Positions 8,991-56,227 of a stretch of 64,000 nucleotides of DNA are shown here, in pieces. The notes under the pieces are model-generated. The model searched no databases, was not told the DNA's origin, and was given only the letters and a program-made list of their open reading frames with translations. Every line of letters starts with the position of its first letter. The first letter of the stretch is position 1. The DNA is from a phage: sequence record NC_101835.1. One strand, given 5' to 3'. Made by a program: the position numbers and the translations under genes.

Positions 8991-9077
8991 TGGTGGGGAG
9001 TGGTGGAGTCGAACCACCCGAGTCGCAATGACAATAGATTTACAGTCTACACCGCTACCTCTACGGGATAACTCCCC
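8991..9077 (-). tRNA. tRNA-Tyr (anticodon GTA), type II
   Basis: 87 nt, acceptor GGGGAGT/ACTCCCC, anticodon loop CTGTAAA, long variable arm, T-arm GTGG-TTCGACT-CCAC, encoded CCA. Confidence 0.75.
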
Positions 9078-9081
9078 AATT

Positions 9082-9156
9082 TGGCACCCCGTACTGGACT
9101 CGAACCAGTGTCAACGGCTTAGAAGGCCGCTGCTTTATCCACTAAGCTAACAGGGC
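9082..9156 (-). tRNA. tRNA-Arg (anticodon TCT)
   Basis: 75 nt, acceptor GCCCTGT/ACGGGGT (two G-U), D-arm GCTT-AGTGGATA-AAGC, anticodon loop CTTCTAA, T-arm ACTGG-TTCGAGT-CCAGT, encoded CCA. Confidence 0.75.
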
Positions 9157-52333: not shown

Positions 52334-52542
52334 TCAACACACATGCATCTGAAGAGACATCCGAAGGAGTGACCATATGTCCCTTGGATGAGCCAGTTAA
52401 AGAGGAAAACTTAGATTCTGAGGACTCTTCATCTTCGTCCCAGACAGATCCTGAGGCTGATGACCTGACGTGGGAGGACATCGTAGATATCTGGTTCTCT
52501 ATTATGCCTGAGCACGAAGAGTTCAGAGGTGGTAGACTATGA
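52330..52542 (+). CDS. small highly acidic protein (70 aa)
   Basis: 3' part of ORF 52129..52542 from internal ATG; 5' part of that ORF spans the promoter and is judged non-coding. Confidence 0.3.
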   Translation: MINTHASEETSEGVTICPLDEPVKEENLDSEDSSSSSQTDPEADDLTWEDIVDIWFSIMPEHEEFRGGRL

Positions 52543-52661
52543 AGCACCGAGCCCACACAGGTTCCTCATGCTAAAGCATGGCCTGAAGAGGCAAACGTGC
52601 ATAATTCCTGCGCATTTGGACGTATAATCCTGTTCACACTCTCATTTCCAGAGGAGATTTT

Positions 52662-52877
52662 ATGAAGATAGAGATATTTGGTGGAGCTGACAACACTCGT
52701 GGCCTGATTTACCTTGAATTCGATGAATCATACCTGCCAGAGGTGTTAAATATAGACTCTGTTGCTGAGGCTTTGGGAGTAAACCCTAAAGAACTCCACT
52801 CTTGTGCTGAGATCGATGGTTGGGAAGAGACCATGAACATTGATTTCAGTGAAGTAGAGGATGAACCGCTGGACTGA
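52662..52877 (+). CDS. small acidic protein (71 aa)
   Basis: GAGGAGA RBS. Confidence 0.35.
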   Translation: MKIEIFGGADNTRGLIYLEFDESYLPEVLNIDSVAEALGVNPKELHSCAEIDGWEETMNIDFSEVEDEPLD

Positions 52878-53219
52878 CACACAATTAGCTGCCCGGCTAA
52901 AGTGCTGGAAGCACCTATAACACATCTTTCAACTAAATTTCCTACCACCACAATCACTTACCTCCCACACATGACTGTTTGCTTGTTTAGTGAGCAGTCA
53001 TGCCTTGACATTCTTGCCTATCCTGATAAAATTAAGTTCTTCTCTTTTCTTTTACCGAGTAATTCGGGTTTTCTGTTCTCTTCGGTTTGAAGGGGTATGG
53101 AGATACACCTGAGTGAACAGGGTGAACAACCGAACCTTTGGCTATGGCATTAGCATGGCGAAGCGGACGGGTGACGAAAGAGGGGCCGGAGGACACCAGT
53201 CACTGCCATATGATATATG

Positions 53220-53800
53220 GGTGATAACCTGAAGAGTCTGAATAAGTGTTTAAGTACCAGTCAGAGGAAAAGGTGAATGGTAGCCGAAGGGGGGAGGGGG
53301 GTTTCTTGTATCTTTAATTTGTATATTATGTATACACTTGTAAACCAATCTAATCTGAATCTGTTTACCACACAAAGCGGATAGAGACAAATATTGCCTA
53401 TTAAACTTGAATTATTTATAGAAAATACCACAACACTACTTAAGTCTTTGATTTTACACACAAATCCTGCAGATATTCACCCTCCATATTTAACATACTT
53501 GTAACATATTCCATACTCTACCTGCCCGATCAATTCACCCAACTACATCCCCATATTTTCCCTGTCTGTACTACCCCTGCCCCGCCGGGAGTCCCATCAT
53601 ATCTGGCTTTCCAGCAAATATCACACCCACAAATATCATTGCCTGAAGAGGGTTTCATCCCATAATACCTGCCTTACCTGAAGAGCGCTTCATACACCAC
53701 GTAAATTTTTTAATTGACCTCCCCCTGCCCCGCCGGAGAGGTTGGCTTTTCCCACACAGACCTGAAGAGTCAGCCAGAAATATCTGAATAGGCCCAATTC
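53220..53800. repeat. dispersed direct repeats in non-coding region (CCTGAAGAG x4; CCCTGCCCCGCCGG x2)
   Basis: CCTGAAGAG at ~53226, 53643, 53677, 53761; CCCTGCCCCGCCGG at ~53573 and ~53722. Confidence 0.5.
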
Positions 53801-54339
53801 TACCACGATTTTGACCTGACCTACAGGGAGGCCCGAAGGGTCTAGCTTTCAGCTAGAGTCCTTGCAGGACCTACAGGAGCGCTGCCAGGCGGACGGAATG
53901 GGAATACTTCTCATTCTTATAACAATTCTCAAATATCGAGGCAGTGAGAGAAATTAATAGGCCAGGCCGTTCACACAGTGGCACAACATTTGCAACCTAT
54001 TTTGTGTGGATGAATGAGAATACCTATCATTATGAGAATAGTTATCATTACTGGCAATTTAACATAATACCCATTATGCGCACCACTGGCGATCCATACA
54101 GGGATTGATAACATGAGTTACTGTTTACGCATATAACAATTATATTTATTACTATTTGTGTTGGGTATAGTTAGCAGCCGATAGATTAGATATTGACCTG
54201 CAGACTTCCAACTGTCTAGACGTCTAAACGCCCACACAGCAAGGATTATACATACACAACTGAATGTAAACAGGGCCGCAAAAATGCTACCATACCAGAT
54301 TGTAAATTTTTCATGCAGCACTTGACAAAGAGGAGGAAA

Positions 54340-54760
54340 ACTTGTCTGACATACTGTGACATAATATGACATAATAGTGACACACTGGGCATACTCAACA
54401 CTGGATACAATAACAATTGTTACTATTGCATGCCTCACTGTTCACGCATAGATGATAAGCCATGCCATTCGTTTGCATGACAATAATTAACTTGTTTACA
54501 ATCTTTCACTGGCTATGCCAGGTGACCTTTGGTCACCCCTTCGGGTGTTTCTATGACATAATATAAAAGCAGGGCAACTATTAGAAGATCTATAGTTGCC
54601 TTGCTTGTTATGTCATGATTAACTAAATACAAGGCAACTATGATCTGATTAATAGATTGCAGACAAACTATCACGGGGGTGATGGTTACTGCTTTTATAT
54701 TATGTCGCGACTCCGTCGCGCCATGCCATTCGTTTGCATAGTTGCCTTATTGTTACAGGT
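54340..54760. repeat. iteron/palindrome cluster, candidate replication origin or regulatory hub
   Basis: Tandem TGACATAAT-type 10-bp repeats (~54343-54375) plus inverted copies near 54553 and 54688; 20-bp direct repeat CCATGCCATTCGTTTGCAT at 54462 and 54722; palindrome GGCAACTAT...ATAGTTGCC. Confidence 0.5.
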
Positions 54761-55350
54761 AAAATAATTACATTATTAATTATTTCTTATCTTTCTCTTA
54801 GTCATCTAATGATTCCAGTCAGTATAGTAATGTACAGTAAACATTAGACGACTAAATATTTCTCTGTTTATGATAACTCACCGTGACAATTTCGGACTGT
54901 TTACGAAAAATGTTGACACCTAAGCTGATTTATGTTATGCAGTTTACACGAATAATTATTTTATGCAGGTATTGACTATTCCGTTATTCTGTGGTTGGAA
55001 TAAATACTTTGCAGGCTATAGAATGGCGTGCGTACATGAATTCTGAGATCTGGCGGCTATAGTTATACTCGATTTTTCACGTAGAACACGCTTTTTAGTT
55101 TGTGTAAGTGTATGACTTATAAGAATTTTTACTTGTTGACAAGATATTGAAGATCTGCATCAGGTTAAAATTTGTGCAATAGCTGCATTACGTGCAATTT
55201 TGGAAGGGAAAACGGGTAAAAATAGCCCTGCTACCACACAATGAAAAGTTATGCAATAGTTATTTTACATGTATATTTGTACAGTGTGTGGGGTTGATGG
55301 CTCGTCAATTATTCCACTTGCCAGGTAGGGCCGTTTATGGTAGGAGAAGA

Positions 55351-55380
55351 GCAGACAAAAAGAAAGGGGCCTAAGCCCCT
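55351..55380 (-). terminator. rho-independent terminator for minus-strand block (possibly bidirectional)
   Basis: AGGGGC-ctaa-GCCCCT hairpin; T-run on minus strand after the stop of gene 55400..55819. Confidence 0.5.
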
Positions 55381-55399
55381 TGATAATTCAGTTAAAAAA

Positions 55400-55819
55400 T
55401 TATAATGATTCGTATATTTCAAAAATCCGATTTGCCAGGTCGTTACGGTAGCGGAATTTTTCCTCACGTTTGATCATAAGATCTTTATAGCCGTACTCTT
55501 TAAGCACTTCATTAACTTTATGGCGGCATACTTTCATATTATCCTGCGCGTCACCAATAAATCTGTTGCTATGGTGCATGGCTTTAATTTCTTCTTCCAG
55601 GACCAGGGCAACTATGCGGACCGGATCAAGCTGATAGGCGGTAACATCCATGCGGCATTGTAAACGGCTTTTTACGTCTGCCACCGGATATACTGCAACC
55701 TCTTCCCCGTCAACATTGACAATAATTAGTTTACCATCGATTTCGAATCCTTTCGCCGCCGGACCGTGACAAAAAGCGTTATCAAAGCTATATGCCGGAT
55801 TATTAGATTTAATGTTCAT
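55400..55819 (-). CDS. hypothetical protein (139 aa)
   Basis: AAGAGGTAAA RBS. Confidence 0.45.
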   Translation of the reverse strand: MNIKSNNPAYSFDNAFCHGPAAKGFEIDGKLIIVNVDGEEVAVYPVADVKSRLQCRMDVTAYQLDPVRIVALVLEEEIKAMHHSNRFIGDAQDNMKVCRHKVNEVLKEYGYKDLMIKREEKFRYRNDLANRIFEIYESL

Positions 55820-55963: not shown

Positions 55964-56227
55964 TTATTTGTTGCTCATCCAGTTTTCCCAAGCTGCCTGA
56001 TAATCTGCCTCACTACGGCGGATCTCTTCTTGCTCTTCAAGGCGGATCTCTTCTTCCAGGTACCCCAAGATGTCAGCCTTTTTAGTCTGGCGCAGCATCC
56101 AGTCATCTTTTTTGCGAGTGAAGATCTTATAAGCTTTCTCGCAAACCTCTTTTTTGCTACCTTTCTGGACTTCAAGAACACGATAAGCCATATATTGAAC
56201 TAATTTGAGCTGATCAAGACGTTTCAT
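55964..56227 (-). CDS. hypothetical protein (87 aa)
   Basis: AAGAGGTAAA RBS. Confidence 0.4.
   Translation of the reverse strand: MKRLDQLKLVQYMAYRVLEVQKGSKKEVCEKAYKIFTRKKDDWMLRQTKKADILGYLEEEIRLEEQEEIRRSEADYQAAWENWMSNK

What the first reader, a model, noticed from the sequence alone, without database searches (positions are those of the whole stretch)
52900..55400. 2.4-kb non-coding region with iterons, palindromes and dispersed repeats at a convergent strand switch
No convincing ORF on either strand in an otherwise densely coded genome. It contains tandem TGACATAAT-type iterons with inverted copies, a 20-bp direct repeat, GGCAACTAT palindromes, four CCTGAAGAG and two CCCTGCCCCGCCGG repeats, and GC-rich hairpin-prone segments. 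Candidates: replication origin, packaging or terminal-repeat boundary, or structured non-coding RNAs.
Basis: seen in the sequence. Interest (0 to 1): 0.7.

Follow-up and report, generated by a model that had tools for sequence, protein, structure and literature searches.

The report
Phage genome ends carrying host dif site
The 2.5-kb gene-free stretch is where this rV5-like virus's linear chromosome begins and ends, and its 459-bp terminal repeat holds a perfect copy of the bacterial "dif" site, which suggests the virus uses the host's XerC/XerD enzymes to join its own ends after infection.

Summary
Window 52878-55399 is non-coding, lies between convergent gene blocks, and holds all the repeats described, far above chance.

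The window is an rV5-like phage (Vequintavirus). The gap is the physical terminus and concatemer-junction region. By homology to records that carry exact terminal repeats (EdH4, YN3) or are opened at the same bases, the 459-bp direct terminal repeat (DTR) is 53888-54346. The TGACATA iterons start at the next base, 54347. The terminal redundancy was reported by Korf 2019, so it is not new.

What appears new is a site inside the DTR at 54057-54084. It reads GGTGCGCATAA-TGGGTA-TTATGTTAAAT: both 11-bp arms of E. coli dif, with a different 6-bp centre. It is the only block conserved across six Vequintavirinae genera. It never carries the host centre, and it is absent from the sister phAPEC8-like DTR. 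No integrated copies were found.

Best model: each virion DNA carries two direct dif sites, and host XerCD circularises or concatenates the genome. Edge motifs plus iterons serve terminase cutting.

Other elements:
- an invariant ~265-nt promoter-driven candidate RNA (53039-53303)
- a structurally conserved cruciform module (54555-54706)

XerCD use, the RNA and any origin function are inferred, not shown.

The parts
52878..55399 (.). Whole gene-free terminal region between convergent gene blocks (right-end unique DNA, DTR, left-end unique DNA)
   Evidence: ORF list and relatives' annotation; ORFs not conserved; 'non-coding' box in the rV5 paper
52582..53769 (+). Five dispersed CCTGAAGAG motifs (52582, 53228, 53642, 53677, 53761), all on the + strand and all left of the DTR. 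Function unknown. CCTGAAG recurs left of the DTR in 9 of 13 lineages.
53005..53032 (+). Strong sigma70-type promoter-like site: TTGACA, 16-bp spacer, TGnTAAAAT (11 of 12 matches, extended -10). Nearly invariant in 17 genomes.
53039..53303 (+). Ultra-conserved candidate ~265-nt non-coding RNA. The CU-rich 5' end pairs with the G6AG6 3' end (53289-53301). It is followed by a U-rich tract and then AT-rich, highly variable DNA.
   Evidence: About 12 variable sites in 300 bp, against 42 in 216 bp of the neighbouring gene. 12 of 12 substitutions fit the predicted fold. The fold is not thermodynamically unusual, z = -0.95. No Rfam match.
53571..53736 (.). Two CTmCCCCTGCCCCGCCGG repeats (53571-53588 and 53719-53736). 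On the - strand they read GGGCAGGG, which is KOPS-like.
53616..53937 (+). AAATATC motifs at 53616, 53631, 53778 and 53931. The last lies about 45 bp inside the DTR left edge, a position kept in all lineages and in the phAPEC8-like DTR.
53818..53867 (.). 50-nt two-hairpin cassette flanked by the 10-bp direct repeat GACCTACAGG. It is an indel hot spot just outside the DTR left edge and is absent in EdH4, YN3 and ECP2303.
53888..54346 (+). Direct terminal repeat, one copy in this assembly. Virion DNA starts at 53888 (GGCGGACGG...) and ends at 54346 (...AAAACTTGTC).
   Evidence: Exact 459-bp and 458-bp terminal repeats of EdH4 and YN3 map here. ECP2303, bov11CS3 and ECP2309 are opened at the same bases. 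Korf 2019 reports a 458-bp terminal redundancy. In the Mydovirus cluster, conservation jumps exactly at the KPP-1 DTR edges.
54014..54049 (.). Tandem 18-mers ATGAGAATAccTATCATT and ATGAGAATAGTTATCATT, weak Fur-box-like palindromes next to the XerD arm
54057..54084 (-). dif-type Xer core: XerC arm GGTGCGCATAA (54084-54074), centre TGGGTA (54073-54068), XerD arm TTATGTTAAAT (54067-54057)
   Evidence: 0 mismatches in 22 arm positions, 0 expected by chance. E. coli dif sequence taken from PMC3025954. Conserved in about 13 lineages and six genera. Two direct copies per linear record.
54214..54229 (.). Palindrome GTCTAGACGTCTAAAC, a MetJ-box-like AGACGTCT. Specific to this genus.
54299..54346 (.). 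Conserved DTR right-edge block: TTGTAAATTT ... CTTGACA, a purine-rich run, then CTTGTC at the edge. It also reads as a - strand promoter-like site (TTGTCA, 18-bp spacer, TACAAT; 54328-54299).
54347..54395 (+). Tandem repeats with a 10-bp period (TGACATACTG, TGACATAATA, TGACATAATAG, TGACACACTGG) that start at the first base after the DTR. They open a strain-variable array of 200-340 bp (TGACAY, then TGTTYAC).
54459..54478 (+). First copy of the 20-bp box GCCATGCCATTCGTTTGCAT (second copy at 54720-54739)
54555..54706 (.). Cruciform or hairpin module. A perfect 18-bp inverted repeat (54555-54572 and 54689-54706) encloses the GGCAACTAT palindromes and a second hairpin. A GC box follows at 54704-54723 (GTCGCGACTCCGTCGCGCCA), then the second 20-bp box.
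   Evidence: z = -8.4 and -9.0. 97-100% conserved within the genus. Every lineage keeps a perfect 16-21-bp inverted repeat with different arm sequences.
54750..55360 (.). AT-rich spacer (about 36-40% GC) with several promoter-like sites
55364..55381 (-). Intrinsic terminator of the leftward gene block (AAGGGGCTTAGGCCCCTT followed by a T-run)
   Evidence: annotated as a terminator in EdH4 and Alma

Best explanation
The gap is the terminus and concatemer-junction region of a Vequintavirus chromosome.

Shown, by homology to deposited linear genomes and the literature: virion DNA is linear with a 459-bp exact direct terminal repeat (DTR) equal to window 53888-54346. About 1 kb of gene-free right-end DNA lies to its left and about 1 kb of gene-free left-end DNA to its right.

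Shown, from sequence: the repeat contains a bare dif-type Xer core. Both arms are identical to E. coli dif. The centre is 6 bp and is not the host's. Every virion DNA therefore carries two directly oriented copies about 137 kb apart.

Inferred mechanism:
1. After injection, host XerC/XerD bind the two cores and recombine them. Within one molecule this gives a circular genome with one repeat plus a 459-bp by-product. Between molecules it gives head-to-tail dimers. This parallels Cre-lox acting in the terminal redundancy of P1.
2. The non-host centre keeps the reaction phage-with-phage rather than phage-with-chromosome.
3. Replication then makes concatemers with one repeat per junction.
4. Terminase recognises the conserved edges (...GCTGCCA|GGCGGAC and CTTGACA, purine run, CTTGTC|TGACA) together with the phased TGACAY/TGTTYAC repeats beside the right edge. 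It regenerates the repeat by staggered nicking and fill-in, as in T7.

The invariant promoter-driven element (53039-53303) and the cruciform module (54555-54706) are further cis or RNA elements whose roles are unresolved. A primer or origin function, or an sRNA, are the candidates.
For: Terminal repeat.
- EdH4 carries an exact 459-bp repeat and YN3 an exact 458-bp repeat. Both map to 53888-54346.
- ECP2303 is opened at 54346|54347. bov11CS3 and ECP2309 are opened at 53888.
- Korf 2019 reports 'short terminal redundancies of 458 bp'.
- KPP-1 has a 514-bp DTR supported by twofold coverage and a PhageTerm T7-type call. Its edge motifs are homologous.
- An IMG/VR contig has an exact 519-bp terminal repeat.
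- Conservation steps up exactly at the DTR edges.

dif core.
- 22 of 22 arm positions match, with 0 expected by chance.
- It is the only alignable block across lineages.
- It is present in PVP-SE1, CR3, Av-05, KPP-1, A73 and Vequintavirus at a fixed distance from the left-edge motif.
- There are two direct copies per linear record.
- The centres are never the host's TGTATA.
- It is absent from the sister-group DTR.

No integrated or plasmid copies in 5,426 E. coli genomes or in 185,579 species genomes.

The iterons begin at 54347 and keep a TGACA core although the rest of the array is hypervariable.
Against: - No experiment shows XerCD acting on this site.
- A bare dif core normally needs FtsK activation at the septum, which may be slow for a lytic cycle. 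No phage-encoded activator was found: the 87-aa 'FtsK' annotation has no Pfam support.
- No cer/psi-type accessory boxes.
- KOPS-like motifs nearby have mixed polarity.
- phAPEC8-like relatives have a DTR and no dif, so the site is not required for this terminal design.
- One paper's PhageTerm run on a cocktail-derived Vequintavirus suggested headful packaging (PMC13211470).
- The DTR of this particular isolate is inferred by 93-94% homology, not measured.
- My first dif probe constrained the centre.
Confidence: 0.6

Rival explanations
1. The region is mainly a replication origin. One version uses the iteron arrays (TGACAY/TGTTYAC), the cruciform module and AT-rich DNA on the left-end side. 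Another is an R-loop origin: a strong promoter drives a ~265-nt transcript ending in G6AG6, followed by AT-rich DNA (53303-53470). That would resemble ColE1 RNA II, T4 ori or the T7 primary origin. This could coexist with the terminus function.
For: - Phased repeats of about 10-11 bp, and AT-rich stretches.
- The inverted-repeat module is structurally conserved with perfect Watson-Crick arms and no G-T pairs in 11 lineages, which points to DNA-level selection.
- Invariant promoter and transcript, with a sharp switch to about 70% variable AT-rich DNA.
- The phage has a T7-like PolA and primase-helicase replisome (PMC3606486).
Against: - No initiator gene is identifiable nearby; all neighbours are PHROGs of unknown function.
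- Iteron number and sequence vary greatly between near-identical phages, which is unusual for initiator sites.
- The GC-skew switch is explained by the change in transcription direction (rV5 paper).
- There are no data on replication intermediates.
Confidence: 0.3
2. The key product is a structured non-coding RNA (53039-53303, + strand), for example a host-takeover or regulatory sRNA. The remaining repeats are incidental.
For: - Discrete 300-bp block with 4% variable sites, against 19% in the adjacent gene.
- Conserved strong promoter.
- Variation sits in predicted loops or preserves pairs, 12 of 12 substitutions.
- Variation destroys the micro-ORF start codon.
Against: - z-score only -0.95.
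- No two-sided covariation available.
- No Rfam family.
- Not detectable outside the genus.
- It does not explain the DTR, the dif core or the iterons.
Confidence: 0.35
3. The dif core is functional but serves another purpose. It could resolve multimers of circular replicative forms. It could titrate or recruit XerCD and FtsK, for example to block host dimer resolution or division. It could act as a protein roadblock within the repeat.
For: - Same sequence evidence as for the main model.
- Plasmids use Xer sites for multimer resolution (established knowledge).
- The sister group manages without the site, which fits an accessory role.
Against: - Phages package from concatemers, so resolving multimers has no obvious benefit.
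- Placement strictly inside the repeat, which gives two direct copies per virion DNA, is what a circularisation role predicts.
- The non-host centre argues for self-pairing.
Confidence: 0.2
4. The dif core lets the phage integrate at the chromosomal dif site, in the manner of an IMEX (an integrative mobile element exploiting Xer), giving lysogeny or a carrier state.
For: Known Xer-exploiting phages (CTXphi and other inoviruses, gokushoviruses) carry dif-like sites (PMC3025954; small contigs).
Against: - No match to this DNA in 5,426 complete E. coli genomes.
- No phage-type site with the phage architecture in 185,579 species genomes.
- The centre always differs from the host's TGTATA.
- The phages are strictly lytic and 120-150 kb long.
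Confidence: 0.03

Closest known systems
Short exact direct terminal repeats with T7-type packaging (T7/T3, SP6, N4; reported for Vequintavirinae EdH4/HdK5 and KPP-1)
   Same: Fixed ends, a repeat of a few hundred bp, a gene-free junction region with conserved edge sequences, nearby inverted repeats and promoter-like sites. The repeat must be regenerated from single-copy junctions in concatemers.
   Different: The repeat contains a host recombination site. The edge motifs and the TGACAY/TAGCAA arrays are specific to this subfamily. No phage RNA polymerase is involved. The cutting mechanism is untested.
Cre-loxP in the terminal redundancy of phage P1 (cyclisation of injected DNA)
   Same: A site-specific recombination site lies in terminally redundant DNA, so the injected linear molecule carries two direct copies that can be recombined into a circle.
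   Different: P1 encodes its own recombinase. Because P1 packages by headful, only a fraction of its particles carry lox twice. Here the recombinase would be the host's XerCD, and every particle carries the site twice because the ends are fixed.
Chromosomal dif and the XerCD-FtsK dimer-resolution system of E. coli
   Same: Identical 11-bp XerC and XerD arms and a 6-bp centre.
   Different: The centre is TGGGTA, not TGTATA. The site is on a virulent phage inside a terminal repeat. There is no converging KOPS polarity.
IMEX elements (CTXphi, VGJphi, TLCphi, gokushovirus prophages) and plasmid sites cer/psi
   Same: Mobile elements that borrow host XerCD through a dif-like site.
   Different: Those elements integrate at dif or resolve plasmid multimers. 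They are small, often have degenerate arms or longer centres, or carry ArgR/ArcA/PepA accessory DNA. Here there is no integration and there are no accessory boxes. The arms are perfect and the element is a 137-kb lytic myovirus.

Membership tests
Short direct-terminal-repeat (T7-type) genome terminus | The same sequence is present at both ends of the linear virion DNA | tested here: met
   By homology. EdH4 (459 bp) and YN3 (458 bp) records have 100% identical ends that map to 53888-54346. Not measured on this isolate.
Short direct-terminal-repeat (T7-type) genome terminus | Fixed ends at defined sequences, the same in independent isolates | tested here: met
   Five or more independent records start or end at 53888 or 54346. 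The edge motifs are shared with KPP-1, whose DTR was mapped experimentally.
Short direct-terminal-repeat (T7-type) genome terminus | Twofold read coverage over the repeat and sharp read starts (PhageTerm signature) | not testable with these tools
   No reads are available. Reported for KPP-1 (PMC9862379). One conflicting headful call exists for a cocktail-derived Vequintavirus.
Xer recombination core site, dif type | 11-bp XerC-binding arm GGTGCGCATAA | tested here: met
   11 of 11 at 54084-54074. Other genera carry the GGTGCGTATAA or AGTGCGTATAA variants.
Xer recombination core site, dif type | 11-bp XerD-binding arm TTATGTTAAAT | tested here: met
   11 of 11 at 54067-54057. All retrieved lineages carry it, but both probes required this arm exactly, so its invariance is not independent evidence.
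Xer recombination core site, dif type | 6-bp central region between the arms | tested here: met
   TGGGTA, 6 bp. Both probes fixed the spacing at 6 bp, so its constancy across lineages was not tested. The centre sequence varies between lineages.
Xer recombination core site, dif type | Bound and cleaved by XerC/XerD, with recombination in vivo | not testable with these tools
   Needs EMSA and recombination assays, and infection of xerC, xerD and ftsK mutants.
Chromosomal dif context | Converging KOPS (GGGNAGGG) polarity pointing at the site | tested here: not met
   Three KOPS-like motifs lie left of the site: one points towards it and two point away. Polarity is mixed in the other lineages.
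Plasmid multimer-resolution sites (cer/psi) | About 180 bp of accessory DNA with an ArgR (ARG box) or ArcA site on the XerC side | tested here: not met
   Best ARG and ArcA matches are no better than shuffles in 12 lineages.
IMEX (integrative elements exploiting Xer) | Found integrated at the host dif site | tested here: not met
   No match in 5,426 E. coli genomes. The 7 hits in 185,579 species genomes lack the phage architecture.
Iteron-type replication origin | Tandem phased repeats next to an AT-rich unwinding region and a cognate initiator gene | tested here: inconclusive
   Repeats and AT-rich DNA are present. No initiator is identifiable. The repeats are hypervariable between strains.
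Known RNA families (Rfam 15), including hammerhead ribozymes | Covariance-model match | tested here: not met
   No match in 52400-55600 at E <= 5. The resemblance of CCTGAAGAG to the hammerhead core CUGANGA fails on stem II pairing (by eye).

The most novel reading that the evidence does not exclude
Vequintavirinae, a whole subfamily of virulent 120-150-kb myoviruses, place a host-type dif site in their terminal repeats. They use the host XerCD recombinase, possibly with an unknown activator or with Fur-type accessory binding, to circularise or concatenate the injected genome. This would be the first use of Xer by lytic tailed phages. It would be a host-enzyme counterpart of P1 Cre-lox cyclisation and would make xerC, xerD and ftsK host factors for these therapeutic phages.
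Probability: 0.4. Interest if true: 0.8.

Novelty: new variant of a known kind. Interest (0 to 1): 0.62.

Why it matters
rV5-like phages are among the most commonly isolated coliphages and the most often proposed for therapy. Even so, how their DNA is handled between injection and packaging is unknown, and the rV5 paper could only label this region 'non-coding'.

Placing the ends at 53888 and 54346 gives correct genome coordinates for annotation and engineering.

The dif core turns an open question into simple experiments: xer and ftsK host mutants, dif-scrambled phages, and junction PCR minutes after infection.

If confirmed, it would:
- extend Xer hijacking from small integrating phages and plasmids to large lytic phages;
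- identify new host dependencies, and therefore possible resistance routes;
- offer a natural design for circularising linear DNA in vivo with host enzymes only.

The invariant RNA candidate and the structurally conserved cruciform are further defined targets.

Tried and rejected
1. Hammerhead ribozyme reading of CCTGAAGAG (CUGANGA core). Rfam finds nothing at E <= 5, and the would-be stem II closes with a G-G mismatch. Rejected.

2. The 87-aa neighbour as an FtsK-gamma-like Xer activator; it is annotated 'DNA translocase FtsK' in some records. No Pfam FtsK hit, and its PHROG has unknown function. Unsupported.

3. KOPS guidance towards dif. Three of 7 window motifs lie in the gap, but their polarity is mixed. 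Not supported.

4. cer/psi-type accessory sites (ARG box, ArcA). At chance level.

5. IMEX integration or prophage state. No copies in E. coli or in 185,579 species genomes.

6. Hidden small genes. ORFs are broken in relatives, or vary without codon bias.

7. Chi sites protecting the ends. None in the gap.

8. BLAST between genera. Only the dif block aligns, so I used motif-anchored comparison instead.

9. Anchoring on the 71-aa and 87-aa proteins in IMG/VR and metagenomes gave only 3 and 4 loci.

10. Thermodynamic test of the 53039-53303 element. Not significant.

11. Literature. No paper links Xer or dif with these phages, and there are no transcriptome data.
Full report
**What the window is.** The region 52600-55500 matches 121 phage records at 90-96% identity. 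All are rV5-like Vequintavirus, including mislabelled 'Campylobacter phage' records. Well-curated relatives annotate no gene between the 71-aa + strand gene (52662-52877) and the 139-aa - strand gene (55400-55819). The rV5 genome paper shows a grey 'non-coding' box at this convergent junction and proposes no function (PMC3606486).

**Checking the observation.**
- The gap ORFs are not conserved. The only one that stays open shows no codon-position bias and has no Shine-Dalgarno sequence.
- Rfam finds nothing in the gap, even at E <= 5.
- Promoter-like sites are about twice the expected number.

**The physical genome ends lie inside the gap.** Several 'complete genome' records start or end within the region.
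- EdH4 carries an exact 459-bp repeat at both ends and YN3 an exact 458-bp repeat. Both map to window 53888-54346.
- ECP2303 is opened exactly at 54346|54347. bov11CS3 and ECP2309 are opened at 53888.
- In another genus, KPP-1 has a 514-bp direct terminal repeat (DTR) supported by twofold coverage and a PhageTerm T7-type call (PMC9862379).
- The KPP-1 edges are homologous to ours...GGTGCTA|GACGGAC against ...GCTGCCA|GGCGGAC on the left, and CTTGACAAGGAGAGAGAATTGTGTT| against CTTGACAAAGAGGAGGAAAACTTGTC| on the right.
- An IMG/VR contig of 148,842 bp has an exact 519-bp terminal repeat.
- In both the Vequintavirus and Mydovirus alignments the repeat is well conserved. The DNA hugging both of its edges is hypervariable, and in Mydovirus the step coincides with the mapped DTR edges.
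- The 'iterons' (TGACATACTG, TGACATAATA, TGACATAATAG, TGACACACTGG) begin at 54347, the first base after the repeat. They open a strain-variable array of 200-340 bp made of units of about 10-11 bp (TGACAY, then TGTTYAC). Other genera have TAGCAA repeats at the same place.

The terminal redundancy itself is published knowledge.

**A host dif core inside the repeat.** BLAST between genera aligns only one short block.
- On the - strand of 54057-54084 it reads GGTGCGCATAA-TGGGTA-TTATGTTAAAT.
- This carries both 11-bp arms of E. coli dif, GGTGCGCATAA-TGTATA-TTATGTTAAAT (PMC3025954), with 0 mismatches and 0 expected by chance.
- A probe built on the block found 31 IMG/VR stretches.
- About 13 lineages share the same ordered architecture around it. 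They include PVP-SE1, CR3 and Av-05 (identities confirmed), KPP-1 and A73.
- The core always lies 177-220 bp from the left-edge motif, and so inside the repeat. Linear records accordingly carry two direct copies.
- An unbiased probe (any centre) added mainly small inovirus- and microvirus-type contigs and no further large-phage group.
- The Vequintavirinae centres are TGGGTA, GGTGTA, CGTGTA, CGTGTT, GTTGTA and GACATA, never the host's TGTATA. The small contigs mostly carry TGTATA or CACCCA.
- The sister phAPEC8-like phage Mt1B1_P17 has an exact 328-bp DTR with the same AAATATC motif and Fur-like palindromes, but no Xer core.
- No copy of this phage DNA exists in 5,426 complete E. coli genomes.
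- A scan of 185,579 species genomes for phage-type sites returned only 7 chromosomal-type hits without the phage architecture.
- There are no cer/psi-type ArgR or ArcA boxes.
- The neighbouring 87-aa protein, annotated 'FtsK' in some records, has no FtsK domain.
- No paper in the library links Xer or dif with these phages, or contains the site sequence.

**Mechanism proposed.**
- Shown: DTR position by homology, dif-core identity, its conservation and its duplication per virion genome, and the absence of integrated forms.
- Inferred: host XerCD recombine the two direct cores of the injected DNA to give a circle with one repeat plus a 459-bp by-product, or join molecules head to tail. This is the host-enzyme analogue of Cre-lox cyclisation of P1 (my own knowledge).
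- Inferred: the non-host centre disfavours exchange with the chromosome.
- Inferred: concatemers with one repeat per junction are then cut at the conserved edges, with the phased repeats as likely terminase-binding sites, and the repeat is regenerated as in T7.
- Weak points: a bare dif core normally needs FtsK, no activator was found, the KOPS-like motifs have mixed polarity, and the sister group does without the site.

**Other constrained elements.**
- *Candidate RNA, 52987-53290.* This stretch has about 12 variable sites among 17 genomes. The adjacent gene has 42 in 216 bp, and the next 75 bp are about 70% variable.
  - It starts with a near-consensus promoter (53005-53032) and would give a ~265-nt RNA (53039-53303).
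  - Its CU-rich 5' end pairs with a G6AG6 3' end.
  - All 12 substitutions fit the predicted fold: nine are unpaired and three preserve wobble pairs. One destroys the only plausible micro-ORF start.
  - Folding energy is unremarkable (z = -0.95) and there is no two-sided covariation.
  - I call it a candidate ncRNA, or a primer transcript of an R-loop-type origin. It is followed by AT-rich DNA.
- *Cruciform module, 54555-54706.* It is an extremely stable branched hairpin on either strand (z = -8.4 and -9.0) and is 97-100% conserved within the genus.
  - Every lineage keeps a perfect 16-21-bp inverted repeat enclosing 71-188 nt, followed by a GC box, although the arm sequences differ.
  - The arms contain no G-T pairs, which points to selection at the DNA level: cruciform or hairpin formation, priming, or junction processing.
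  - The 20-bp direct repeat (54459 and 54720) brackets this module.
- *Left-side motifs.* CCTGAAGAG (five copies, + strand only) and AAATATC recur left of the repeat in most lineages. Their function is unknown.

**Verdict.** The region is the genome terminus, which is known. The terminal repeat contains an apparently unreported, subfamily-wide host dif site, which suggests that lytic myoviruses use Xer recombination. That makes a testable new variant of known Xer-hijacking and Cre-lox-type systems.

Confidence by component:

| Component | Confidence |
|---|---|
| Terminus location | about 0.9 |
| dif core is a genuine XerCD substrate | about 0.6 |
| Role is circularisation or end-joining | about 0.4 |
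| 53039-53303 is an expressed RNA | about 0.35-0.4 |

Noticed in passing
Terminal regions of L010, L020, L026, L033, L038, L040, L044, L050 and L168; window 54014-54049: Fur-box-like palindromes (at most 4 mismatches to GATAATGATAATCATTATC) are strongly enriched in the terminal regions of Vequintavirinae: 14 observed against about 0.1 expected over 12 lineages. Examples are GATAATGATAATCATTCCC right beside the XerC arm in CR3-like phages and a 1-mismatch site in L040. They also occur in the phAPEC8-like DTR. The window's own copies are weak. This could reflect iron or Fur control, or an accessory role at the terminus.
   Followed up: partly
window 53289-53301; L019 and L033/L040/L044/L050 just inside the DTR left edge: G-run tracts: G6AG6 here, G5AG5AG5 in A73, GGGGGTGGGGAGGGG in CR3-like phages. 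They match KOPS (GGGNAGGG) and resemble the mitochondrial CSBII-type G-tract. Three of the 7 KOPS-like motifs in the window lie in the gap, with mixed polarity.
   Followed up: partly
window 54214-54229: The palindrome GTCTAGACGTCTAAAC contains a perfect MetJ 'met box' (AGACGTCT) flanked by degenerate copies. It has 3 mismatches to two tandem boxes (p about 0.01) and occurs only in this genus. An unrelated IMG/VR contig (L035) has three tandem met-box-like units next to its dif-like site.
   Followed up: partly
window 53818-53867: A 50-nt cassette of two GC-rich hairpins is bounded by the 10-bp direct repeat GACCTACAGG. It is present in some genus members, replaced by another allele in others, and absent in EdH4, YN3 and ECP2303. 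This small indel module sits directly outside the DTR.
   Followed up: partly
window 5636-6478 (-): Rfam reports a group I catalytic intron (50.3 bits, at the family's gathering threshold of 50 bits), presumably interrupting a phage gene.
   Followed up: no
window 8432-9156 (-): A cluster of six tRNA genes. One (8589-8687) is called by ARAGORN with a 4-base anticodon (atcc) and scores low in Rfam (35.5 bits). It may contain an intron or be aberrant.
   Followed up: no
window 55964-56227 (-): The 87-aa protein is annotated 'DNA translocase FtsK' in several GenBank records but has no FtsK domain. Its Pfam hits are insignificant and its PHROG 11701 has unknown function. The annotation looks like error propagation. 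The gene is nearly invariant in the genus.
   Followed up: yes
window 55400-55819 (-); L003, L006: The 139-aa first gene after the terminator is absent in EdH4 and Alma. It is about 89% conserved in the different subfamily Stephanstirmvirinae (phAPEC8-like), which suggests exchange of terminal-region genes between the two groups.
   Followed up: partly
L168/L169 (NC_052662.1, Mt1B1_P17): This phAPEC8-like phage record carries an exact 328-bp terminal repeat with AAATATC about 45 nt from the end and two Fur-like palindromes. It has no Xer core, which makes it a natural 'minus-dif' comparator.
   Followed up: yes
phage records MG0656xx: About 19 'Campylobacter phage' GenBank records, some flagged UNVERIFIED, are 90-96% identical to this E. 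coli Vequintavirus. They are probably mislabelled or contaminant genomes.
   Followed up: no
L023 (IMGVR_UViG_3300026097_000876, 261,806 bp): A dif-like core lies immediately next to two DnaA boxes (TTATCCACA), and a second partial copy is nearby. The element is unrelated and was not examined.
   Followed up: no
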